Below, piece by piece: positions 5,842-16,653 of a stretch of 17,145 nt of DNA; position 1 is the stretch's first letter, and each line of letters starts with the position of its first letter. Source of the stretch: a virus (lineage: Duplodnaviria; Heunggongvirae; Uroviricota; Caudoviricetes); IMG/VR virus record IMGVR_UViG_2579778652_000002, positions 1 through 17,145 of that record. The stretch is one strand, 5' to 3'. Under the pieces are notes generated by a model that had not been told where the DNA came from, ran no database searches, and saw only the letters and a list, made by a program, of their open reading frames with translations. Both the position numbers and the translations under genes were made by a program.

Positions 5842-6372
5842 TCACACCATTCCGGGCAAATACATTTGCACTTCATTTGCCACTCTCTCACGTGCAAAAT
5901 GAAGCAATCTTTTTCGCCCACCAACGCCCCACTTAGCCATTTGGCTTGCGCACTGGCTTATCGCTTTGGTTTCAGTATTGATGATGTGATCGATTCTATT
6001 CAGACGGGACATTGCGCCAACGCCGAGACGGACAACCGTTTTGAAAACTTCATAAACTTCGATTTCAAATTCCGGCTTAATCCATGCTGCATATCTGATT
6101 GCCAGAAGTTCAACACCCCACACACCTGGTTCTGCACCACCTTTGATTATTTTAAGTGGTTGAATTTGTTCCAAAGTGCTTTTTTGCACTTTGGCCTCCA
6201 GTGCTTTTATGAAGCGTTTTATCTGCGCGCTACGCAAAAACTGGCTTGGGCGCTGTTGCTCTGTAGCCTCTCCATTTGCAACTGCTGCTGCATGGAGATC
6301 GTTTAAGTTGTAGCGTCCATCCTCATCAACACGAACGGACACACCATTGACAATAACTGTTGGGTACTTCAT
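5842..6372 (-). CDS. KilA-N domain protein
   Basis: 176 aa; N-terminus VIVNGVSVRVDEDGRYNLNDLHAAA ... LLAIRYAAWIKPEFEIEV fits the KilA-N pattern as I recall it. Flanked by about 255 bp and 345 bp of non-coding DNA. Confidence 0.7.
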   Translation of the reverse strand: MKYPTVIVNGVSVRVDEDGRYNLNDLHAAAVANGEATEQQRPSQFLRSAQIKRFIKALEAKVQKSTLEQIQPLKIIKGGAEPGVWGVELLAIRYAAWIKPEFEIEVYEVFKTVVRLGVGAMSRLNRIDHIINTETKAISQCASQMAKWGVGGRKRLLHFARERVANEVQMYLPGMV

Positions 6373-8622: not shown

Positions 8623-9246
8623 CTAACGTGTGACCGCATTCAAGATATTGTCTGCGATTGACTCTTCCTTGTGGCATTGCACCACCAGAGCGTCATACAG
8701 CGGCTTAACAGTGCGTGACCAGGTGGGTTGAGTAAGGTTTGGGATTAGCATCGTTACAGCGCGATATGCGGCGCTTGCTGGCATCCTTGAATAGCCGACG
8801 CCTTTGCATCTTCCGCACTCTTTCTCGACAACTCTCCCCCACCGTTCTGTTTTGGCTATATCAACCGCACGGCCTGTACCGTGGCAATCTCTGCATCTTG
8901 CTCCCGGCGTCGCAGCACTACGGCAATAATCCGCATAAGCGAATGTTGCGAGCACTTGCAGTACCTTTGCCTTAGTATTTCCTTCAAGTTTTGCCACACC
9001 ACGGTATTTCCCCGATACCTTGTGTGCAAATTGCATCAGATAGTTGATAGCCTTTTGTTTGTCGTTCTGGCTGAGTTCATGCTTACCACAGAATGCAGCC
9101 ATTCCGAATCCGGCTTGTGATTGCGCCATCCCCATAGCAGCCATCACATCAGTACCGGAAAGAGAGTCAGAAGCCGTGGCCCGTGGTGAGTCGCTCATCA
9201 TCGGGCTTTTTGGCGAATGAAATTTAGCTACGCTTTCGAGTCTCAT
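8623..9246 (-). CDS. Q: Late-gene antiterminator Q (lambda type)
   Basis: 207 aa starting MRLESVAKFHSPKSPMMSDSPRATASD with a Cys-rich zinc motif (CRDCHGTG...CGRCKG); essentially the lambda Q sequence as recalled. Confidence 0.9.
   Translation of the reverse strand: MRLESVAKFHSPKSPMMSDSPRATASDSLSGTDVMAAMGMAQSQAGFGMAAFCGKHELSQNDKQKAINYLMQFAHKVSGKYRGVAKLEGNTKAKVLQVLATFAYADYCRSAATPGARCRDCHGTGRAVDIAKTERWGRVVEKECGRCKGVGYSRMPASAAYRAVTMLIPNLTQPTWSRTVKPLYDALVVQCHKEESIADNILNAVTR
8946..8985 (+). promoter_or_regulatory. paQ-like CII-dependent antisense promoter inside Q
   Basis: TTGC-N6-TTGC (8946-8959) followed 13 nt later by -10 TAGTAT (8973-8978), antisense to Q, as in lambda paQ. Confidence 0.55.
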
Positions 9247-9431
9247 CGTCTTCCCCTCTTGCCCTGTTTGACCATCAGGACGCCGTTAACTATTACATGA
9301 CGCTCGCCTTTGCTGTCTCGGTTGTACTTGAGCACTGTTCCTCTTGCGCAGGAAAGCATCCTTGCCACTTCGGTCTGATTGCCTCGTGTCTGGATAAGAA
9401 GCTCTGGTATCGTTTGAATTGTGGCGTTCAT
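9243..9431 (-). CDS. ninH: NinH-like small DNA-binding protein
   Basis: 62 aa; NQTEVARMLSCARGTVLKY HTH resembling lambda NinH; ATGA overlap with Q start. Confidence 0.7.
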   Translation of the reverse strand: MNATIQTIPELLIQTRGNQTEVARMLSCARGTVLKYNRDSKGERHVIVNGVLMVKQGKRGRR

Positions 9432-9790
9432 GCGTTCTCCAGTTCGGTGATTTTTATTCCAAGCCTTCCGCCTGGTACTTTCACGCCACGAATTACGCGA
9501 ATGTCATCGAATTGCTCGTCGTCTTCCGCAAATCCGGCGTGGATAAGGGAGTCGAGTAAACCTTTCAGGATGTTGTCGAGGTCGCGGCGGCGGGAGTCTG
9601 GAACGTCTGCGATGACTTTGATACGGAGTCGTGATTTGGTGAAAATGTCTAACTTGAGTTGGCGGATGATTTGCTGAACGTCTTTTCGGTATTTCTGGCC
9701 TTTATCGCTGATGTAGTATTGGCTTCCCCGTCTTCGCCAGTAGGTATTCACCGACGGCGGGTAAGGAAGCACAAACTGATATTCGTTCAT
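9428..9790 (-). CDS. rusA: RusA-family Holliday junction resolvase
   Basis: 120 aa; LPYPPSVNTYW ... DVPDSRRRDLDNILKGLLD ... GGRLGIKITEL, matching RusA hallmarks. Confidence 0.85.
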   Translation of the reverse strand: MNEYQFVLPYPPSVNTYWRRRGSQYYISDKGQKYRKDVQQIIRQLKLDIFTKSRLRIKVIADVPDSRRRDLDNILKGLLDSLIHAGFAEDDEQFDDIRVIRGVKVPGGRLGIKITELENA

Positions 9791-10077
9791 GGCTTAATCT
9801 TCCCCTCCTTCAGCAGTATCGCCTGCGTCCTGATCACGCCTTCGAGGTGGTAAAGTCTGGCGTCTTTGTTGTCGAGATTATGGGTGCGTCGGTCGATTTC
9901 ATCGTGACACGCGCTACAAGCCCATGCGCCGATCAGGTCGTCAGGCTTCATTCCCGTTCCGCAAATTCCAGCCATCCGGTAATGTGCCAGAACTGTAGTT
10001 TCAGGATTGCCATTGCATACGCCGTAAATACGTACCTGACATTCTCTGCCGCGTGCTTCTTTGCGTAGATTGGCCAT
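9787..10077 (-). CDS. YbcO-like (DUF1364) nin-region protein, putative zinc-binding nuclease
   Basis: 96 aa; MANLRKEARGRECQVRIYGVCNGNPETTVLAH ... CSACHDEIDRR, resembling DLP12 YbcO. Confidence 0.7.
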   Translation of the reverse strand: MANLRKEARGRECQVRIYGVCNGNPETTVLAHYRMAGICGTGMKPDDLIGAWACSACHDEIDRRTHNLDNKDARLYHLEGVIRTQAILLKEGKIKP

Positions 10078-10802
10078 TAAGCAGCCTCCCCTGTTACTTT
10101 CAGCATTCCGTTATCGAGCAGCTTTCTGGTCAGCCACTGTTGGCCACGCCCGGTGATTTTTGTGGTGAACGATATCTGTATTCCGTGATTTGTATTGACC
10201 GCTGTTTCTTTCACTGTGAAATAGCCGCGATCCATATATTCCTGCATTGGCACATTGCGCCGGGAACCTGAAGCAATAAGGATTTTGTGATCGCGCATCC
10301 ACGCAAACAGTTTGTTTGGACCAATTCCAACAACCTTTGCAAAGTTTCCAATCAAAATTCCGCTGGCCTCGCCAACGCGATCGGCAAACTCAACTTTAGG
10401 TGCGGCAATTGCGAGCTGGTTTTCCAGTTGCATTTTCTGCTCAGCAAGATCAGCAGCAAGGCGCAACGCTTCTGGTAGCGTTTTGGGGATATTAACCGCA
10501 GCTTCTTCAAGCTCTCGCCAACGGTCAACAAGACGAGCGGTGAATTCCGGCGACAACTGAGCGACGACAATAATGCTGTCGCGCTTACCTTGTTCGCCTT
10601 CGAAGACGTAGAAATAACGCTTCCCGGTAATAACACCTAAATCATTGATTATGTTAGTGTGCTGCAATGCAGGAGGCTTGATAACGCCACGTTTCACCAA
10701 TCTATCTATGGATACTTTTACATTGCTATGGCGGCTTTCTACCAACTCAGCGATTTCAATGCTTGTCATTTTGATGGCATTGCCATTTATTAACTCACTC
10801 AT
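10077..10802 (-). CDS. Rha-domain / ANT (KilA-C) antirepressor-like protein
   Basis: 241 aa; N-terminal Rha-like segment (TSIEIAELVESRHSNVKVSIDRL) and C-terminal ANT-like segment (FAKVVGIGPNKLFAWMRDHKIL ... MQEYMDRGYF). Confidence 0.75.
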   Translation of the reverse strand: MSELINGNAIKMTSIEIAELVESRHSNVKVSIDRLVKRGVIKPPALQHTNIINDLGVITGKRYFYVFEGEQGKRDSIIVVAQLSPEFTARLVDRWRELEEAAVNIPKTLPEALRLAADLAEQKMQLENQLAIAAPKVEFADRVGEASGILIGNFAKVVGIGPNKLFAWMRDHKILIASGSRRNVPMQEYMDRGYFTVKETAVNTNHGIQISFTTKITGRGQQWLTRKLLDNGMLKVTGEAA

Positions 10803-10965
10803 CGTCTTCTTCCTCGTACATTGAGCTATTCGGATCGCTCATCAGTTCTGCGCAGCAATCGGAGCACACGTGAACTTCCAGAAAATGCAGCTTTTGACCG
10901 CAGTTAGCGCACGTTAAAGCCCGCTCGACGCTTTCTTGTTCGTAACTTCGATTTGGGTCAATCAC
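10795..10965 (-). CDS. ninF: NinF-like small Cys-rich protein (GTG start; absent from ORF track)
   Basis: Hand translation gives (M)[55 protein letters not shown], close to lambda NinF; GTGA overlap with NinE stop; its stop overlaps the Rha/ANT start. Confidence 0.6.
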
Positions 10966-11144
10966 CTTGTTTTCCTCGCACGTTCTCTAAGCCACCGGAT
11001 ATCCCACAGGTGAGCCGTGTAGTTGAAGGTTTTTACGTCAGATTCTTTTGGGATTGGCTTGGGTTTATTTCTGGTGCGTTTCGTTGGAAGGTATTTGCAG
11101 TTTTCGCAGATGATGTCGGTGAAACTTCGTCGCTGTCGTCTCAT
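10962..11144 (-). CDS. ninE: NinE
   Basis: 60 aa from internal Met [23 protein letters not shown]..., near-identical to lambda NinE; ATGA overlap with the methyltransferase stop. Track ORF extends further upstream. Confidence 0.8.
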
Positions 11145-11668
11145 GCCGCCCTCCTGACGCCCTGCCCGATCGCCATCAATGCCGCTTTGGATACGGTAGT
11201 AAACATCCGTCGAGGACTGATGAACGGTCGCCAAATCAGCAGCATGGAGCCTTTGCTGTTTCCCTTCTTCTCCAGCCCTGTCGATGGTTCGATAAAATTA
11301 ATCCGTCCATCAGTGATAATGCGAACTTCGTCGACACTCTCCAGAGCCTTGCTGAACCATCCGACTGACATATCCTCTGGCACAAGCATAACTACCGTCT
11401 GTCGCTGTTGTATGCACTGCTCAGTGGCTTTTTCCACCCACGGCCTGATATTGCTGTACGGTGGGTTATTCCAGATTGCACCGTGGCTTATCCACTCAGA
11501 ATTGAGCGCGTCGTCGGCCTCAGTTAGCCAGTGAGCGCACAGAGCATTTTTGTCGCTCGCTGCCGAATCCAGCCAGAATCCAAACTCAATATCCAGTGCA
11601 TCAAAAAGCCAAAGCGGTGTTTGCCAGCAGTCCTTGTCGTGTGCTGGCGTATTTGATTTGATAGTCAT
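11141..11668 (-). CDS. Phage Dam-family DNA N6-adenine methyltransferase
   Basis: About 175 aa from Met at 11668; [24 protein letters not shown] and NPPY motif; ATGA overlaps with NinB upstream and NinE downstream. Confidence 0.8.
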
Positions 11669-12111
11669 GCAGCCTTCCCTTTTCGTTGTGACCATTCATA
11701 CTCTCGCCGGGAGTCATCACTCCACCGCACGTTGCGCTCTGAGCCGAACCAAAACATGATTTCGATAAGCTCAGTCATGCTGGCCTTTCGCATTTTGCTG
11801 GTACGCACGCCAAGCATGACAACGCCACCGTCGATACCAGGCACACTTCGTTGCTCCAGTTTTTTGGTCTTAAGCCACAGGGCAGTAAACAGGTCTTTCC
11901 AGTCCTCCGGCGCAAGTCTCTGTCCATGCCAAAGCACCTGACGTGATACGTCCTGCAATAACGCCCACATAAGGCGGTTTTGAGGATTGCTCCGCTTGGG
12001 TTCTTTAATGTGGACTTCGTGAGGTGACTTGTCGTCGATCGGAAGTGAGAGTATTGCGTCTATGGCGTTATTTCTGATTGCTTCGTTGCGAAGCATGTAT
12101 ATTTGCTTCAT
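11665..12111 (-). CDS. ninB: NinB (Orf-family recombination mediator)
   Basis: 148 aa; NPQNRLMWALLQDVSRQVLWHG ... RWSDDSRREYEW, similar to lambda NinB; GAGG RBS. Confidence 0.8.
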   Translation of the reverse strand: MKQIYMLRNEAIRNNAIDAILSLPIDDKSPHEVHIKEPKRSNPQNRLMWALLQDVSRQVLWHGQRLAPEDWKDLFTALWLKTKKLEQRSVPGIDGGVVMLGVRTSKMRKASMTELIEIMFWFGSERNVRWSDDSRREYEWSQRKGKAA

Positions 12112-12133
12112 TGTTACCTCGACTTAATTCTGC

Positions 12134-12475
12134 TCATTGATACCCCCTCTCACTTAATCGCCTCCACGCTTCGTTAAACTCTTCTCGGGTTGCGCCGGAT
12201 TTTCTTTCTTCAAACATCATGCATTCGCTGATGTCTCCCCATGACTTTGGTCGCTTTTCAGCGAACAGATCATCCCATTCGAATACCCAACGGCCTGATT
12301 TTCGGTAGTGGTAAATGGTCAGCCATGTTGTGCTGTTCGCTGGATACCCATAGAGAACTTCGACTTTTTGATCACGGTCTTTATGCTTTTTCAGCAGGAT
12401 AAAGCCAGCAACCAGCGAAGCTCCGGCAAGAATGATGATTGGAATTTGCCAGTCAGCCACACTTCCCTCTCCCAC
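12134..12475 (-). CDS. Hypothetical single-pass membrane protein (nin region, ren position)
   Basis: GTG start at 12475, or GTG at 12460 with GAGGGAAG RBS; N-terminal TM (WQIPIIILAGASLVAGFILL) then about 80 aa soluble region; no recognisable domain. Confidence 0.5.
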   Translation of the reverse strand: MGEGSVADWQIPIIILAGASLVAGFILLKKHKDRDQKVEVLYGYPANSTTWLTIYHYRKSGRWVFEWDDLFAEKRPKSWGDISECMMFEERKSGATREEFNEAWRRLSERGYQ

Positions 12476-12508
12476 AAATAAAAAGGCCTGCGATTACCAG
12501 CAGGCCTG
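12476..12508 (-). terminator. Intrinsic terminator after the helicase gene (tR2 analogue)
   Basis: Minus strand: AGGCCUGC-uggtaatc-GCAGGCCU (8-bp stem) followed by UUUUUAUUU; located where lambda has tR2 between replication genes and nin. Confidence 0.7.
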
Positions 12509-12532
12509 TTACAAGCTCAGTGATGTAGATGG

Positions 12533-13909
12533 TCATACGTCAGCCCCTTGTGCATATCGTCTGCCACGCGCAGCAGGTGCATTTGATGCTGTGCAAATCT
12601 GTCTGGCTTCATCCTGGTCACATGCAACAAAGTGTCCGTTACAGAACCGCTGGTAAACCGTACCAAGTGAGCCAAAACGGTTTTTCGTCACGATGATTTC
12701 AGCAAATGGCGCAGCGCTACTGTTCTCGTCATATACCGCTTCCCGATAGAGCATGATGATTGAGTCTGCGTCCTGCTCAATGCTTCCTGAATCACGCAAA
12801 TCTGCGTTTGTCGGGCGTTTGTTTGGTCGCTTCTCAACATCGCGCGAAAGCTGACTCAGGGAGATAACCGGTGTTTTCAGGTCTTTCGCCATCGCCTTCA
12901 GGCTTCCGGAGATGTGAGCAATTGCGAGGTCGTTGCGGTCTGCTTTCGGCTTCTCAATCAGGCCAAGATAATCCGCCATGATGAGTGAGAGGTTTGGATT
13001 TTCCTGTTTGTGCCGTTCTGCGATTGAGCGTATTTCTTCGACCGATAACCGCGAGGCATCGACTACCCATACATCCAAATCTGCAAGCTGACTCATGCCG
13101 TTAGCAACACGTGCCCAGCCCTCGTCATCCATCGATGCAGGATTTCGCAGTACGCTAACCGACATCCTCCCGGCGTTGGCAATGCTTCGCTCTGCAATCT
13201 GCAATGCGCTCATTTCCATTGAGAAAATCAATACTCCGCGCCGGACGTCAGAACCAGGAATAACGCGGCTTGCAACGCCTTCGGCAATCTTCAGCGCCAG
13301 CTCGGTTTTCCCCATACCAGGACGAGCAGCGATTATCACCAGGTCTTCTGCGTTCATCCCTCCGGTGATGGCGTCAAGTTCTTCGATTCCGGTCTTCAGG
13401 GTATCGGACTCTTCTCCGTTCCTCAGACGCCTGTCAAGCGTGTCAGTGTAGTCGGTGATGATTTCCCCTAACCGTACAGGTTTAACCTCGTCACGGGGCT
13501 TTCTGATGGCTGAAAGACGCTTTACAAGTTCATCCATCGCCTGACTCGATGCGTCGATGGTTCCGCTCTGAATTGGTTCACGCATTTCATCCATGATTTC
13601 CAGCACCAGACGGCGGTGATAGTTATCCGCAACCATTCCGGCATATCCCTTCAGGTTTGCGGCACTCGGGCAGTTTTTGCTGGTCATCAGGATTGACGTG
13701 AAATGCTCCTCTCCGCACGCCTCGGCAACCATCAGCGCGTCGATTAGGTTTCTGTTTCGCGCCTGCTTGCGGATAACCTCGAAGGCTTTCCGGTAGAGCG
13801 GAATTGAAAACGCTTCCGGCTCCAGCGTTGCCAGAACGTCACTGGCGGTTGGTGTTAATCCACCAATCAGCAGGCCACCGATAACACTCGCTTCGATATC
13901 CTGTCTCAT
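12533..13909 (-). CDS. Replicative DnaB-type helicase (P22 gene 12-like)
   Basis: 458 aa; Walker [10 protein letters not shown], DnaB-like N-terminal domain; ATGA overlap with the upstream initiator gene. Confidence 0.85.
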
Positions 13910-14736
13910 GCAATCCCCCTGTCTGCAAACTTCCCTTCCCGAACTCCCGTTAACGAGTCTTCTCTCAGCAGGTAATCAAAATCAGCCGTCCAGCCCGTGT
14001 CGTTGTCTCCGAAGTAAAACGGCTTGGCCTGATGTACAAACGCCCTGACATACGCTCTGAAACCGTCCACGTTTGGCGTTTTCAGTTGCGGAATGATTTT
14101 CTTCAGGCGACGTTTGCGTTTCTCGTTGACCGCAACAGCGTGTGGCAGTCTGTCACCGACTTCGGTGTTGTAGGCGTTCAGGAAGGATTCATAGTCGATT
14201 CGTTCTGCCTTGCGACGTTCAGGTTTAACCTGCCCATCGCCGCCCCCGTTAGGGGGTAAGGGGGTATTTGTATTTATTGTCTTTTGTATATTGTCTTTTG
14301 TGTTTGACTGATTCGGTAAATTGCTTTTTACCGATTTGGTGAAGGTTTGTTTTACCGAATTGGTAAATGTTTTACCGAATCCGTTAACTTTCGTTTTCCA
14401 CTCGGAAATGTTTGTATTCATACCAACTTGACGCCCCACCTGAATGAGAACTCCCATTCTGATAAGCTCGTTTTTGGCGGTAGAGCATTTGGTTGGTGCC
14501 ATGCCAGTGAGTTCAGCGAACTGTTCGTTTCCGATCCAATCTATTTTTTTGTTGTAACCGTATGTCTTGCGCCACACAGCCATAACAATCAGTAACTGAT
14601 GTAGAGTAAGTCCAGAAAGCATGGCGGCTTCTAACAGTGTGTTTGCAGTCCGAGTGTATCCATCTTCGAGTTCTGCCACGCGATGCTCCACGACCTCCAG
14701 TTGAGGCCTGTAATCAGCTAACTTAACGACGCCCAT
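13906..14736 (-). CDS. Replication initiator (lambda O / P22 gene 18-like)
   Basis: 276 aa; CAGGAG RBS; contains iterons and an AT-rich stretch within the coding sequence (repeat TFT-x-SVK in the protein), as in lambda O. Confidence 0.8.
14262..14395. repeat. Putative ori: four TTTACCGAAT-type iterons plus adjacent AT-rich region inside the initiator gene
   Basis: Iteron copies at about 14311-14324 (inverted), 14328-14341, 14351-14367 (near-palindrome TTTACCGAATTGGTAAA) and 14371-14388; AT-rich 14262-14305 with tandem ATTGTCTTTTGT x2. Confidence 0.6.
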
Positions 14737-14892: not shown

Positions 14893-14955
14893 CTGTGGAT
14901 TGATCCAGTCTTTCTACATCAGGCCTCGAAGAATTCGCCGTTCTTCGGGGCTTTT
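14893..14955 (+). ncRNA. oop-like antisense RNA with strong terminator overlapping the cII 3' end
   Basis: Plus-strand hairpin GGCCUCGAAGAA-uucgccg-UUCUUCGGGGCU (14909-14939) followed by UUUUCUUUUG, antisense to the cII C-terminus, as for lambda oop; the 5' end and promoter are uncertain. Confidence 0.45.
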
Positions 14956-15200
14956 TCTTTTGTCAGGTAATCGGCAAGTCGCTTAGTCAGCTCAGCCATT
15001 TCATCGTCTTCGATTCCGTATTCCAGAACAGCCAGCATCATGCTTACCTGCGAGAAGAAACCATTCTTCCATCGGCTTACCTGATATTCAGGAACCCCCA
15101 TTGCTCGAGCGAATGTCTTCTGCCCCATCAGTGCCAGTTTGTTCAGCAAGGCTGACTCGATGCGAGCCGCTTTCTTGCTTTTAGTTGCAATAGTACCCAT
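14919..15200 (-). CDS. cII: CII-type transcriptional activator
   Basis: 93 aa; RIESALLNKLALMG ... QVSRWKNGFFSQVSMMLAVLEYGIEDDEMA, closely similar to lambda CII; AAGGAA RBS. Confidence 0.85.
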   Translation of the reverse strand: MGTIATKSKKAARIESALLNKLALMGQKTFARAMGVPEYQVSRWKNGFFSQVSMMLAVLEYGIEDDEMAELTKRLADYLTKEKAPKNGEFFEA

Positions 15201-15276: not shown

Positions 15277-15308
15277 GCCCTTTTTCAGGGCGGGGATGTG
15301 TAAGAGCG
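15277..15308 (-). promoter_or_regulatory. nutR (boxA CGCTCTTAC plus boxB GCCCTGAAAAAGGGC)
   Basis: On the minus strand just downstream of cro: CGCTCTTACACATCCCCGCCCTGAAAAAGGGC, matching lambda nutR boxA/boxB. Confidence 0.8.
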
Positions 15309-15316
15309 TTAATAAC

Positions 15317-15547
15317 TTAAGCGGCCATTAATTCAGGCCAGATGCTTTCCCAATCAACCGGATGAAGGTCTTTGCGAGTCACTTCACCATTGCTGAACTT
15401 CTCAATCAGAACACAAAGTGCTGCGCCCAATTCATGATTACGGCTAAGTGCTTTCCTCAAATAGCCGATAGAAGTTCCGCACTTGGTGGCAAATTCTCTC
15501 TGCTCTTCCAGTGAAAGGGAGTTCAGATACAAGCGGAGTTCTTCCAT
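15317..15547 (-). CDS. cro: Cro-like HTH repressor
   Basis: 76 aa; HTH (FATKCGTSIGYLRKALS); GGAAGGAG RBS; divergent from cI across the operator region and upstream of nutR and cII. Confidence 0.65.
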   Translation of the reverse strand: MEELRLYLNSLSLEEQREFATKCGTSIGYLRKALSRNHELGAALCVLIEKFSNGEVTRKDLHPVDWESIWPELMAA

Positions 15548-15655: not shown

Positions 15656-16342
15656 ATGGATAAATACGAACAAAGACGACTAAGGCTGATAGAGATAAGA
15701 GACCGATTCTGTAATGGAAAGGCCTCAGAGTTGGCTCGTCGAATAGAAAGGGAACCATCATACGTTTCCAGAATGCTGTATCCGGAAGGAAAAAGCGGAA
15801 AAAAACGCATTGCTGACGATATGATGGAACTAATTGAAAAATCTTTTAATCTCCCACGCGGATGGATGGACATGCTTGCAGATGGTAAAGCTGGAGCTAC
15901 GGACCATCTTGAGTTTGCGGGTAACGTTCGTGCGGGTTTTGTTCCGGTAATTGGTGAAGCCGTTTTGGGAGTTGATGGCTCAGTGGATATGATTGAATTC
16001 AGATCCGGTTGGTTAAGCATCTACAGCGGCGATAAAGATGCTTACGGTCTGAAGGTTAAGGGTGACAGCATGTGGCCAAGGATTCAGTCAGGAGAATATG
16101 TTGTTATTGAACCAAATACGCCAGTACATCCAGGTGATGAAGTCTTTGTAAGGACCAAAGACGGTCACAACATGATAAAGATCATGAACAAAACAAGAGA
16201 CGGTGATTATCAGTTTAGTAGCATAAACAGTGATCACCGCCCAATCACTCTTCCTGTTGAAGAAGTTGATAAAATGCATTTTGTTTCAGCTATTGTGAAA
16301 CACACCAGGTACGTAGACCAGGACGATCTGCCAAAAGTTTGA
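15656..16342 (+). CDS. cI: CI-type prophage repressor (HTH plus S24 LexA-like peptidase domain)
   Basis: 228 aa; N-terminal HTH (ASELARRIEREPSYVSRML); C-terminal S24 motifs (KVKGDSMWPRIQSGEYVVI, MIKIMNK); divergent from cro. Confidence 0.85.
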   Translation: MDKYEQRRLRLIEIRDRFCNGKASELARRIEREPSYVSRMLYPEGKSGKKRIADDMMELIEKSFNLPRGWMDMLADGKAGATDHLEFAGNVRAGFVPVIGEAVLGVDGSVDMIEFRSGWLSIYSGDKDAYGLKVKGDSMWPRIQSGEYVVIEPNTPVHPGDEVFVRTKDGHNMIKIMNKTRDGDYQFSSINSDHRPITLPVEEVDKMHFVSAIVKHTRYVDQDDLPKV

Positions 16343-16356
16343 GGATAAAGCAGCAA

Positions 16357-16653
16357 ATGTTTATACCCGGCATAGTAGTCGCTGTTGTAATCATCTGCTT
16401 CATATGGGCAAAGTTATCTCCTGTAAGCTCTAAGCATACAGCTGAACTCATGAGGAAGAAGAATCTTATACATGAGGCAGAATCGATAATTAAAAAGTTC
16501 AAAGGCATGTCATACGACGACATGTCATCAGAGCAGATTGCTATGTATAAATGCGCCATTGAGCGCCTTGACTACTTAAACGGACTCAAACCCAAACACA
16601 CCCCAGTAGAATCAAAATTGCCGCAATGGCCAAGCAATCCAAATAGCTTCTGA
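16357..16653 (+). CDS. Small membrane protein co-transcribed with cI (rexAB-position moron); function unknown
   Basis: ATG at 16357, 15 nt after the cI stop (track ORF begins at TTG 16339); N-terminal TM FIPGIVVAVVIICFIWA then about 75 aa soluble region; followed by an intrinsic terminator; no domain I recognise. Confidence 0.6.
   Translation: MFIPGIVVAVVIICFIWAKLSPVSSKHTAELMRKKNLIHEAESIIKKFKGMSYDDMSSEQIAMYKCAIERLDYLNGLKPKHTPVESKLPQWPSNPNSF

What the first reader, a model, noticed from the sequence alone, without database searches (positions are those of the whole stretch)
12134..12520. Unknown membrane-anchored protein immediately downstream of the tR2-like terminator, in the ren position of the nin region
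A roughly 108-113 aa ORF with a GTG start that abuts the T-run of a strong minus-strand terminator, an N-terminal TM helix and a soluble Trp/Arg-rich C-terminal region. It occupies the slot where lambda has ren (which counters Rex exclusion). I see no similarity to lambda Ren or any nin protein I recall. It is a candidate accessory or anti-exclusion function whose expression would depend on N-mediated read-through of the terminator.
Basis: partly seen in the sequence, partly recalled or inferred. Interest (0 to 1): 0.5.

Follow-up and report, generated by a model that had tools for sequence, protein, structure and literature searches.

The report
Uncharacterised membrane-anchored phage nin-region accessory protein
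This is a real but already catalogued small phage gene (the same as "gene 46" of Shigella phage Sf6) that makes a membrane-anchored protein of unknown function, sits just after a lambda-type transcription terminator, and is dispensable for phage growth in the laboratory.

Summary
The ORF is real. It lies on the minus strand of a P22-like/lambdoid prophage, in the order cI, cro, nutR, cII, O, DnaB helicase, ninA/tR2, this ORF, ninB, dam, ninE, ninF, Q.

The conserved start is the GTG at 12460, giving 108 aa. The GTG at 12475 (113 aa) comes from a G-to-T change seen in only 3 of 81 copies.

The terminator is the lambda tR2 module, with an identical hairpin. It lies inside a 27-aa ORF that P22 annotates as ninA.

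The ORF is therefore an insertion between ninA/tR2 and ninB. It is not in the ren slot, because lambda ren lies upstream of tR2.

The protein is about 99% identical to Sf6 gene 46 protein and matches PHROG 5903 (unknown function). It has no Pfam, NCBIfam or PADLOC match and no structural neighbour.

It has an N-out/C-in membrane anchor and a roughly 75-aa cytoplasmic domain. Distant relatives carry zinc-ribbon-like Cys/His ligands that this protein lacks.

It is under purifying selection (pN/pS about 0.19), has mosaic flanks, and occurs in 108 of 5,426 complete E. coli genomes. Sf6 mutants that delete or truncate it are viable.

Best reading: an N-dependent, delayed-early, non-essential membrane-tethered accessory protein that binds a cytoplasmic partner. 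Nothing supports an anti-Rex role. The gene is known; its function is not.

The parts
12134..12460 (-). Coding sequence of the 108-aa protein (GTG start 12460-12458, TGA stop 12136-12134). It is the homologue of Sf6 gene 46 and a member of PHROG 5903.
   Evidence: ORF list. PHROG 5903 at E 7e-76, with the profile starting at residue 6 of the 113-aa reading. Sf6 and Oslo annotations are 108 aa. The start is conserved in 81 of 81 copies. pN/pS is about 0.19.
12473..12475 (-). Upstream in-frame GTG that would give the 113-aa reading. It is probably not the start.
   Evidence: It is created by a G-to-T change (TTTGTGGG versus TTTGGGGG in lambda, Sf6 and Oslo) found in only 3 of 81 copies. It lies within the terminator T-run region and has no Shine-Dalgarno sequence.
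12462..12473 (-). Purine-rich ribosome-binding stretch GGGAGAGGGAAG just upstream of the GTG start. Lambda has the same sequence just upstream of the ninB ATG.
   Evidence: Alignment with lambda, Sf6 and Oslo and the lambda sequence.
12392..12445 (-). Membrane anchor (residues 6-23, IPIIILAGASLVAGFILL), followed by KKHKDRDQK. Predicted orientation is N-terminus out and C-terminus in the cytoplasm.
   Evidence: Hydropathy 2.28. AF2 models a helix over residues 6-32 of the 113-aa numbering. In 28 of 29 anchored homologues there is more K/R after the hydrophobic core than before it, and 25 of 29 have none before it.
12137..12370 (-). Conserved soluble domain (residues 31-108). The core motif is VLYGYP..TWLTIYHYR..W.FEWDDLF...RP, followed by a C-terminal helix.
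12474..12507 (-). Intrinsic terminator homologous to lambda tR2. The hairpin AGGCCTGCTGGTAATCGCAGGCCT occupies 12507-12484 and is followed by TTTTATTTGT.
   Evidence: Terminator scan. The hairpin is identical in lambda, Sf6 and Oslo. Sf6 annotates it as tR2. P22 annotates the equivalent as a terminator similar to phage lambda.
12453..12536 (-). ninA, a 27-aa hydrophobic ORF ([27 protein letters not shown]) that contains the tR2 hairpin. Its ATG overlaps the helicase stop (ATGA), and its stop lies 8 nt inside the target gene.
   Evidence: Translation. P22 ninA has the same peptide, identical at about 23 of its 26 residues by eye. Sf6 gene 45 is the same boundary sequence, bsq6. The ORF is present and ATGA-coupled in 72 of 81 loci.
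12533..13909 (-). DnaB-like replicative helicase, the upstream gene (P22 gene 12 type).
   Evidence: Pfam DnaB_C at 9.5e-78 and DnaB at 4.5e-13. PHROG 19.
11665..12111 (-). ninB (Orf recombination mediator), the downstream gene, 22 nt after the target stop.
   Evidence: Pfam NinB at 7.3e-49. PHROG 72.
15277..15308 (-). nutR-like site between cro and cII: boxA CGCTCTTA (15308-15301) and boxB GCCCTGAAAAAGGGC (15291-15277).
   Evidence: Sequence read directly. Sf6's annotated nutR has the same boxes. Identity with lambda nutR is from my own knowledge of the lambda sequence.

Best explanation
The ORF encodes a 108-aa bitopic inner-membrane protein, the Sf6 gene 46 / PHROG 5903 family. It is the first gene after the ninA/tR2 terminator module of a P22-like lambdoid prophage.

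It is transcribed only as part of the pR early-right operon. This happens after N-modified RNA polymerase, loaded at the lambda-type nutR, reads through tR2, so it is a delayed-early lytic gene and not a lysogen-expressed one. Translation starts at the GTG at 12460, behind the same purine-rich ribosome-binding sequence that serves ninB in lambda. It may be coupled to translation of the overlapping ninA mini-ORF.

A short acidic N-terminus faces the periplasm. One transmembrane helix anchors the protein. A compact, roughly 75-residue beta-sheet-plus-helix domain is held at the cytoplasmic face of the membrane. This domain looks like a zinc ribbon that has lost its metal ligands.

The most likely mode of action is stoichiometric binding or sequestration of a cytoplasmic or membrane-associated host (or competing-phage) protein. 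On this reading it is a non-essential host-takeover or fitness factor, not an enzyme or a DNA-binding protein.

Shown: the gene, its start, its conservation, the anchor, the position relative to tR2, and dispensability in Sf6. Inferred: N-dependence, topology, and action by binding a partner. The partner is unknown.
For: - Identity and reality: PHROG 5903 at E 7e-76; about 99% identity to Sf6 gene 46 and the Oslo hypothetical protein; pN/pS about 0.19.
- Start codon and ribosome-binding site are conserved in 81 of 81 copies.
- The terminator matches lambda tR2 and lies inside ninA.
- nutR boxes are present. No sigma-70-like promoter was found in 11500-13000.
- Anchor and positive-inside bias.
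- The domain is neutral (pI 6.9, K+R = D+E = 15) and has no catalytic or known fold match.
- Relatives without the anchor, or with C-x4-H...C-x2-C ligands, occur in virulent phages. They sit in early or DNA-metabolism regions of unrelated phage types.
- Flanks are mosaic, with 7 upstream and 3 downstream gene types. The gene is patchy, in 108 of 5,426 E. coli genomes, whereas more than 2,000 carry matches to the flanking helicase/ninB DNA.
- Sf6 isolates 3-7 (deletion 30436-34441) and 7-3 (deletion 30641-34635) remove or truncate gene 46 (30392-30718) and grow, with faster lysis (PMC5630979).
Against: - No partner, phenotype or localisation has been measured for any family member.
- Topology rests only on the positive-inside rule.
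- The promoter scan is a crude consensus search, so a weak internal promoter and lysogenic expression are not excluded.
- In 7 of 81 loci the upstream sequence is different, so dependence on tR2 read-through is not universal for the family.
- 'Binds a partner' is a default inference from small size, absence of catalytic motifs and a conserved, less confidently modelled loop (DDLF...RP; pLDDT about 70 for residues 71-80).
Confidence: 0.45

Rival explanations
1. It is an anti-exclusion or anti-defence factor. Like Ren against Rex, or like other phage counter-defence proteins, the membrane-tethered domain would neutralise a membrane-associated host or prophage defence system during lytic growth.
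For: - It is an early, dispensable, mosaic accessory gene with patchy distribution, which is typical of counter-defence genes.
- A distant T7-like relative lies in an early region that also holds a weak ArdA-like gene.
- Membrane tethering would suit membrane-based abortive-infection systems such as RexB. This last point is inference.
Against: - No similarity to Ren.
- It is not in the ren slot.
- No PADLOC or Pfam link.
- No conserved co-occurrence with any defence or anti-defence gene among 81 loci.
- No experimental data.
Confidence: 0.2
2. It is a replication-associated membrane organiser. Like phi29 p16.7, an N-terminal anchor with a cytoplasmic domain would tether replication proteins or replicating DNA to the membrane.
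For: Family members repeatedly sit next to replication genes:
- after a DnaB-type helicase, a primase-helicase or a lambda-P-like gene in lambdoid prophages;
- between the primase and helicase genes in IME207;
- a few genes downstream of a family A DNA polymerase in a 148-kb contig.

The ancestral form looks like a zinc ribbon.
Against: - In lambdoid phages the adjacency follows from fixed operon architecture.
- The domain is neutral (pI 6.9), not basic.
- Other contexts lack replication genes: next to PhuZ in Goslar, and in a T7-like early region.
- It combines freely with at least four different helicase or loader types.
- It is dispensable in Sf6.
Confidence: 0.12
3. It is a superinfection-exclusion or lysogenic-conversion membrane protein, expressed from the prophage to block incoming phage, like SieA, T4 Imm or HK97 gp15.
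For: It is a small bitopic inner-membrane protein carried by temperate phages. In 7 of 81 loci the upstream sequence is different.
Against: - It lies inside the repressed pR operon, downstream of tR1 and tR2, with no promoter-like site nearby.
- The conserved domain is predicted to be cytoplasmic.
- Relatives without an anchor occur in virulent phages.
Confidence: 0.08
4. It is a non-functional or untranslated ORF, a fortuitous reading frame in mosaic 'boundary' DNA.
For: No function is known. The gene is dispensable in Sf6. Two of 81 copies are truncated to 73 aa.
Against: - pN/pS is about 0.19 over 48 alleles.
- Homologues at 25-65% identity keep the core motif across unrelated phages.
- The AF2 model is confident.
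- The start codon and ribosome-binding site are conserved.
Confidence: 0.03

Closest known systems
Shigella phage Sf6 gene 46 protein (AAQ12235) / Salmonella phage vB_SosS_Oslo AMBK_59 / PHROG 5903
   Same: About 99% identical over the whole 108 aa. Same position directly after the ninA/tR2 boundary sequence. Same GTG start.
   Different: Nothing substantive. The window copy has a G-to-T change that creates an extra upstream GTG, and here ninB follows directly, whereas Sf6 has genes 47-49 in between. The family itself has no assigned function.
Lambda Ren
   Same: A small, non-essential protein of the pR operon, distal to the replication genes.
   Different: No sequence similarity. Ren lies upstream of tR2, whereas this gene lies downstream of it. 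Ren has no membrane anchor, which I state from my own knowledge and did not test.
P22 / phage 21 NinA
   Same: Both belong to the first segment of the nin region.
   Different: P22 ninA is the 26-aa ORF that contains the terminator. Its homologue in the window is the separate 27-aa ORF at 12453-12536, not the target.
Pfam DUF1660 (PF07874), prophage zinc-ribbon-like proteins
   Same: Distant Cys/His-bearing relatives of the family (C-x4-H ... C-x2-C flanking the same beta-strands) give sub-threshold DUF1660 hits, 18.8 and 13 bits against a cut-off of 21.4.
   Different: The target gives no hit, lacks all four putative ligands and has a transmembrane helix instead of the first knuckle. DUF1660 itself has no known function.
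phi29 p16.7 (membrane anchor for phage DNA replication)
   Same: A small early phage protein with an N-terminal transmembrane anchor and a cytoplasmic domain, encoded near replication genes and non-essential. The comparison rests on my own knowledge of p16.7.
   Different: No sequence or fold relationship was detected. The domain here is neutral, not DNA-binding-like.

Membership tests
PHROG 5903 / Sf6 gp46 family | Full-length profile match | tested here: met
   E 7e-76, residues 6-113 against profile positions 1-108 of 108. About 99% identity to Sf6 gene 46.
PHROG 5903 / Sf6 gp46 family | Conserved core YGYP...TWLT.Y...FEWDDLF...RP | tested here: met
   Invariant columns Y42 G43 Y44 P45 T53 Y55 E66 L70 F71 R75 in alignment A1.
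PHROG 5903 / Sf6 gp46 family | N-terminal single transmembrane anchor (in the closer members) | tested here: met
   Hydropathy 2.28. Charge bias present in 28 of 29 anchored homologues.
Lambda Ren | Sequence homology to Ren | tested here: not met
   BLASTP gives only a 19-residue segment, E 0.028 for a single comparison. No Pfam hit.
Lambda Ren | Position between the replication genes and tR2 | tested here: not met
   Ren is at 40280-40570, upstream of the tR2 hairpin. The target lies downstream of it.
Lambda Ren | Protects the phage from Rex exclusion | not testable with these tools
   Needs plating assays on Rex+ lysogens.
NinA (P22 / phage 21) | Homology to the NinA peptide [24 protein letters not shown] | tested here: not met
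   That peptide is encoded by the separate ORF 12453-12536. The target shares nothing with it, except in rare frameshift fusions elsewhere.
DUF1660 (PF07874) | Score above the Pfam gathering threshold | tested here: not met
   No hit for the target. Best relative scores 18.8 bits against a cut-off of 21.4.
DUF1660 (PF07874) | Cys/His metal ligands of the zinc ribbon | tested here: not met
   The target has YHYRKSGRW where the Cys-bearing relatives have C-x-R-C-G, and a transmembrane helix where they have C-x4-H.
Superinfection-exclusion membrane proteins (SieA, Imm, HK97 gp15 type) | Expression in the lysogen, or from its own promoter | tested here: inconclusive
   No sigma-70-like site in 11500-13000, and the gene lies behind tR2 in the pR operon. 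The scan matches consensus only.
Superinfection-exclusion membrane proteins (SieA, Imm, HK97 gp15 type) | Blocks DNA entry of a superinfecting phage | not testable with these tools
   Requires infection assays.
phi29 p16.7-like replication membrane anchors | Cytoplasmic domain that binds DNA or replication proteins | tested here: inconclusive
   Domain pI is 6.9 with no net charge, and no fold match to DNA-binding domains. Binding itself was not testable.

The most novel reading that the evidence does not exclude
The family could be a new class of small phage effector with a previously undescribed fold, a zinc ribbon that has lost its metal site. It would be held at the cytoplasmic face of the inner membrane by a transmembrane helix or, in virulent phages, possibly by an amphipathic N-terminal helix. 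It would use the invariant, flexibly modelled DDLF...RP loop to capture a conserved host protein, for example a membrane-associated defence, division or replication factor. The family is shared by lambdoid, T7-like, T5-sized, jumbo and Shuimuvirus phages.
Probability: 0.25. Interest if true: 0.55.

Novelty: already known. Interest (0 to 1): 0.27.

Why it matters
In itself it matters little. It is one of many uncharacterised accessory genes in the mosaic nin region of lambdoid phages, annotated since the Sf6 genome record AF547987 and dispensable in culture.

It could be worth a modest follow-up for three reasons:
- The domain has no detectable structural relative.
- It is conserved across very different phage types.
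- It comes in anchored, unanchored and metal-ligand-bearing versions, which suggests one conserved host target approached in different ways.

The surrounding anatomy is a neat, testable case of translation interacting with termination. A terminator is embedded in a translated mini-ORF (ninA) that is ATGA-coupled to whatever gene lies upstream.

Tried and rejected
- **Family libraries.** Pfam, NCBIfam and PADLOC gave nothing for the target.
- **Profile against PDB sequences.** Nothing better than E 0.34.
- **Wider homology.** An exhaustive HMM search of 1.84 billion representatives found only 38 clusters. A second word-indexed search with the wider profile found no named or Pfam-annotated relative.
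- **Spurious hit.** A 3,904-aa hit with 12 matching stretches turned out to be a Ser/Pro-rich repeat protein carrying LFDE.RP.SP motifs. I treated it as spurious.
- **Ren and NinA.** Ren homology was rejected. NinA identity was rejected because NinA is the upstream mini-ORF.
- **Amphipathic N-termini.** In relatives without the anchor, helical hydrophobic moments were high (0.6-0.72 in 8 of 18). They did not differ significantly from shuffles, so this is suggestive only.
- **Rfam.** No RNA family anywhere in the window.
- **Species scan.** A scan of one representative genome per species found a single locus, in Pantoea. The first viral scan with alignment A3 failed for lack of a conserved stretch.
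- **Literature.** Searches for the accessions, 'Sf6 gp46', 'phrog_5903' and DUF1660 returned nothing.
- **Clamp-binding idea.** I considered that DDLF might be a beta-clamp-binding motif. I could not test it and do not rely on it.

Full report
**1. What is there**

The window is a stretch of a P22-like/lambdoid prophage whose early-right operon runs on the minus strand. The gene order, from the immunity region outward, is:

| Feature | Coordinates (strand) |
|---|---|
| cI-like repressor | 15656-16342 (+) |
| cro-like gene | 15317-15547 (-) |
| nutR-like site | 15277-15308 (-) |
| cII | 14919-15200 (-) |
| O-like initiator | 13906-14736 (-) |
| DnaB-type helicase | 12533-13909 (-) |
| Finding's ORF | 12134-12460 (-) |
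| ninB | 11665-12111 (-) |
| Dam-type methyltransferase | 11141-11695 (-) |
| ninE | 10962-11234 (-) |
| ninF | 10795-10965 (-) |
| Ant-like protein | 10077-10802 (-) |
| YbcO | 9787-10077 (-) |
| RusA | 9428-9790 (-) |
| Q | 8623-9246 (-) |

Lysis, terminase, portal and scaffold genes follow.

The ORF named in the finding exists at 12134..12475 on the minus strand, 113 aa from the first GTG.

**2. The terminator and the slot**

The scan finds a terminator-like hairpin on the minus strand at 12507..12484 (8 pairs, 6 of them G-C), followed by TTTTATTTGT.

Aligned with lambda, the stretch from the ATG at 12536 to just before the GTG at 12460 is nearly identical to lambda 40570-40645. That lambda stretch holds the ren stop codon, the tR2 hairpin and the ninB ribosome-binding site. 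The hairpin itself is identical. Sf6 annotates the same sequence as tR2 and as boundary sequence bsq6.

In P22 the 26-aa ORF that contains this terminator is annotated ninA and is followed at once by ninB. The window has the same mini-ORF at 12453-12536. Its peptide is [27 protein letters not shown], against P22's [26 protein letters not shown].

In lambda, ren lies upstream of tR2 and ninB starts directly after it. The finding's ORF is therefore an extra gene inserted between ninA/tR2 and ninB. It is not an occupant of the ren slot. Here the helicase stop overlaps the ninA ATG (ATGA), so the ren slot is simply empty.

**3. The start codon**

I collected 81 copies of the gene: 78 of the 80 IMG/VR loci plus Sf6, Oslo and the window.
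- All 81 have the GTG that corresponds to 12460. Seventy-nine encode 108 aa and two are truncated to 73 aa.
- The GTG at 12475 exists only where TTTGGGGG has become TTTGTGGG, in 3 of 81 copies.
- The purine-rich stretch GGGAGAGGGAAG just upstream of 12460 is the same sequence that lies just upstream of the ninB ATG in lambda.
- Seven loci have a different upstream sequence and instead have GGAGG upstream of the same GTG.
- The PHROG profile and the Sf6 and Oslo annotations also start there.

The protein is therefore 108 aa. Its start is 24 nt beyond the hairpin and does not abut the T-run.

**4. Is it a gene?**

Yes.
- It matches PHROG 5903 over its full length at E 7e-76 and is about 99% identical to Sf6 gene 46.
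- Among 48 distinct alleles there are 34 synonymous and 25 non-synonymous codon variants. With 69 synonymous and 252 non-synonymous sites, the ratio is about 0.20. The summed pairwise pN/pS is 0.185.
- Relatives at 25-65% identity keep the core YGYP...TWLT.Y...FEWDDLF...RP.

**5. The protein**

*Anchor.* Residues 6-23 (IPIIILAGASLVAGFILL) form a hydrophobic helix, with a Kyte-Doolittle 19-residue mean of 2.28. AF2 models it as a helix. It is flanked by MADWQ before and KKHKDRDQK after.

In 28 of 29 anchored homologues there are more Lys/Arg after the core than before. Twenty-five have none before, and many have Asp at position 2 or 3. That pattern does not fit a Sec signal peptide. It fits a reverse signal anchor, with the N-terminus outside and the conserved domain in the cytoplasm. 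This is an inference from the positive-inside rule.

*Soluble domain.* The AF2 model has mean pLDDT 82.7, with three of the four residue blocks that span the strands above 89. It shows three meander strands, a short fourth strand and a C-terminal helix. The invariant DDLF...RP segment lies in the least confident part of the domain, with pLDDT about 70 for residues 71-80. The domain is neutral: pI 6.9, with 15 K+R and 15 D+E.

*No known relatives by structure or profile.*
- Foldseek against the PDB gives nothing.
- BFVD returns only the homologues from phages Goslar and IME207.
- A profile search of PDB sequences, and Pfam, NCBIfam and PADLOC, are all negative.

**6. The family**

An exhaustive HMM search of 1.84 billion representatives finds only 38 clusters, nearly all of 73-133 aa. 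They fall into three kinds:
- Anchored forms like this one.
- Forms with a short Phe/Leu/Lys-rich N-terminus instead of the anchor. These occur in Goslar (jumbo), KookSpook (112 kb), IME207 (Shuimuvirus) and some enterobacterial prophages.
- Forms with C-x4-H before the first strand and C-x2-C in the hairpin between strands 2 and 3.

Two of ten members of the third kind give sub-threshold hits to Pfam DUF1660, at 18.8 and 13 bits against a cut-off of 21.4. I read the target domain as a zinc-ribbon-like module that has lost its ligands. This is an inference, and DUF1660 has no known function either.

The unanchored N-termini have high helical hydrophobic moments, 0.6-0.72 in 8 of 18. These values are not significantly above shuffles, so peripheral membrane binding is only a possibility.

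**7. Context and distribution**

Among the 81 copies:
- The upstream gene is one of seven unrelated types. These include two DnaB-type helicases, a primase-helicase, three small proteins and a 203-aa protein.
- The downstream gene is one of three types: the Sf6 gene 47 type, a 78-aa protein, or ninB.
- In 72 of 81 the ninA mini-ORF is present. It is always ATGA-coupled to whatever lies upstream and ends 8 nt inside the gene.

More diverged relatives in other enterobacterial prophages keep the same arrangement with a diverged module. L092 and L093 have a 26-aa hydrophobic mini-ORF, a GGCCG...CGGCC hairpin with a T-run, and a GTGA overlap. Another is ATGA-coupled to a gene downstream of a lambda-P homologue, with no terminator.

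In virulent phages the relatives lie in early or DNA-metabolism regions:
- between the primase and helicase genes (IME207);
- a few genes downstream of a family A DNA polymerase, directly after an HNH endonuclease (148-kb contig);
- near RNase H, Rad52-like and RtcB genes;
- downstream of a single-subunit RNA polymerase in a T7-like contig;
- next to PhuZ in Goslar.

The gene is present in 108 of 5,426 complete E. coli genomes, always chromosomal. More than 2,000 carry matches to the flanking helicase/ninB DNA, with other small genes in the slot. Only one of 185,579 species-representative genomes, a Pantoea, carries a relative detectable by the search patterns.

**8. Experimental evidence from the literature**

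In an Sf6 evolution experiment, deletions removing 'part or all of genes 46-58' arose repeatedly.
- Isolate 3-7 lacks 30436-34441, which leaves only the first 44 nt of gene 46 (30392-30718).
- Isolate 7-3 lacks 30641-34635.
- Both are viable and lyse faster. The predicted terminator was retained in all deletion mutants (PMC5630979).

The gene is therefore dispensable for lytic growth in culture. I found no paper that assigns it a function.

**9. How it most likely works**

*Shown:* a translated-looking, selected gene; the conserved start; the anchor; the position behind tR2; and dispensability.

*Inferred from lambda biology:*
- Transcription comes from pR.
- RNA polymerase is modified by N at a nutR whose boxA and boxB match lambda's as I recall them.
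- Polymerase then reads through tR2, giving delayed-early expression in lytic growth and silence in the lysogen. No promoter-like site was found nearby.

*Inferred from anatomy:*
- The domain sits at the cytoplasmic face of the inner membrane.
- It is small, neutral and free of catalytic signatures, and it carries an invariant exposed loop.
- It therefore most likely acts by binding a host or phage protein.

I put about 0.85 on the anatomy and about 0.45 on the whole statement. The rivals are:

| Rival | Confidence |
|---|---|
| Anti-defence or anti-exclusion | 0.20 |
| Replication-associated membrane organiser | 0.12 |
| Lysogen-expressed exclusion protein | 0.08 |
| Non-functional ORF | 0.03 |

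**10. Comparison, novelty and verdict**

The protein is a member of the Sf6 gp46 / PHROG 5903 family. It is not Ren, not NinA, and not a demonstrable DUF1660 member.

As a sequence it is already known and annotated as hypothetical. Its function is unknown, like that of many nin-region ORFs. The 'ren slot' and 'anti-exclusion' readings do not.

Interest is low to moderate. The gene is ordinary for its setting, with a small upside from an unmatched fold shared across very different phages.

Noticed in passing
window 12453-12536 (-): The tR2 hairpin lies inside a 27-aa hydrophobic mini-ORF, which P22 annotates as ninA and lambda leaves unannotated. Its ATG overlaps the stop of whichever gene lies upstream (five different ATGA contexts), and its stop overlaps the start region of the next gene. 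A ribosome translating it would cover the terminator. A paper on tR2 reports that termination is almost completely repressed when the terminator lies a few base pairs downstream of a gene (PMC4824070, abstract). Translation of ninA may therefore modulate tR2 as well as N does.
   Followed up: partly
IMG/VR loci (2 of 81); proteins P0002-P0011: One-base length changes in the G-run just after the terminator T-run (GGGGG in most copies) fuse ninA in frame to the gene. The result is 133-134-aa forms with two hydrophobic segments. These could be real variants, slippage products or sequencing errors.
   Followed up: partly
window 16339-16653 (+): A 104-aa ORF with an N-terminal hydrophobic segment (MFIPGIVVAVVIICFIW) starts at or just after the cI stop codon. 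That is the position where lambda has rexA/rexB. It matches PHROG 10450 (unknown function) and has no Pfam match. It is a better candidate than the finding's ORF for a lysogen-expressed exclusion or conversion function.
   Followed up: partly
window 15277-15308 (-): boxA CGCTCTTA and boxB GCCCTGAAAAAGGGC lie between cro and cII. The same boxes are seen in Sf6's annotated nutR, and they match lambda nutR as I recall it, although the cro-like gene here is of the YdaS type.
   Followed up: partly
proteins P0066-P0077, P0082, P0084: A subfamily of relatives carries C-x4-H and C-x2-C at positions flanking the conserved strands, and gives marginal DUF1660 hits. This suggests a zinc-ribbon ancestry for a domain that is metal-free in the window's protein.
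   Followed up: partly
protein P0073: A 3,904-aa Ser/Pro-rich repeat protein matched the profile 12 times through repeated LFDE.RP.SP motifs that resemble the family's DDLFDEGRP loop. This is probably a chance match to a short linear motif.
   Followed up: partly
L092 7240-7497 and L094 3781-4038: Related prophages carry a homologue of the DNA polymerase III theta subunit (PF06440) in their nin region.
   Followed up: no
window 10077-10802 (-) and 5842-6372 (-): An Ant-like anti-repressor gene sits inside the nin region between ninF and ybcO. A KilA-N domain protein lies between the lysis genes and the small terminase subunit.
   Followed up: no
L087 2020-2226 (E. coli ERP001): In prophages such as ERP001's, which share the same helicase and ninB (examined in one genome), the slot after tR2 holds a different, 68-aa hypothetical gene. 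This suggests the position is a swap site for small accessory genes.
   Followed up: partly
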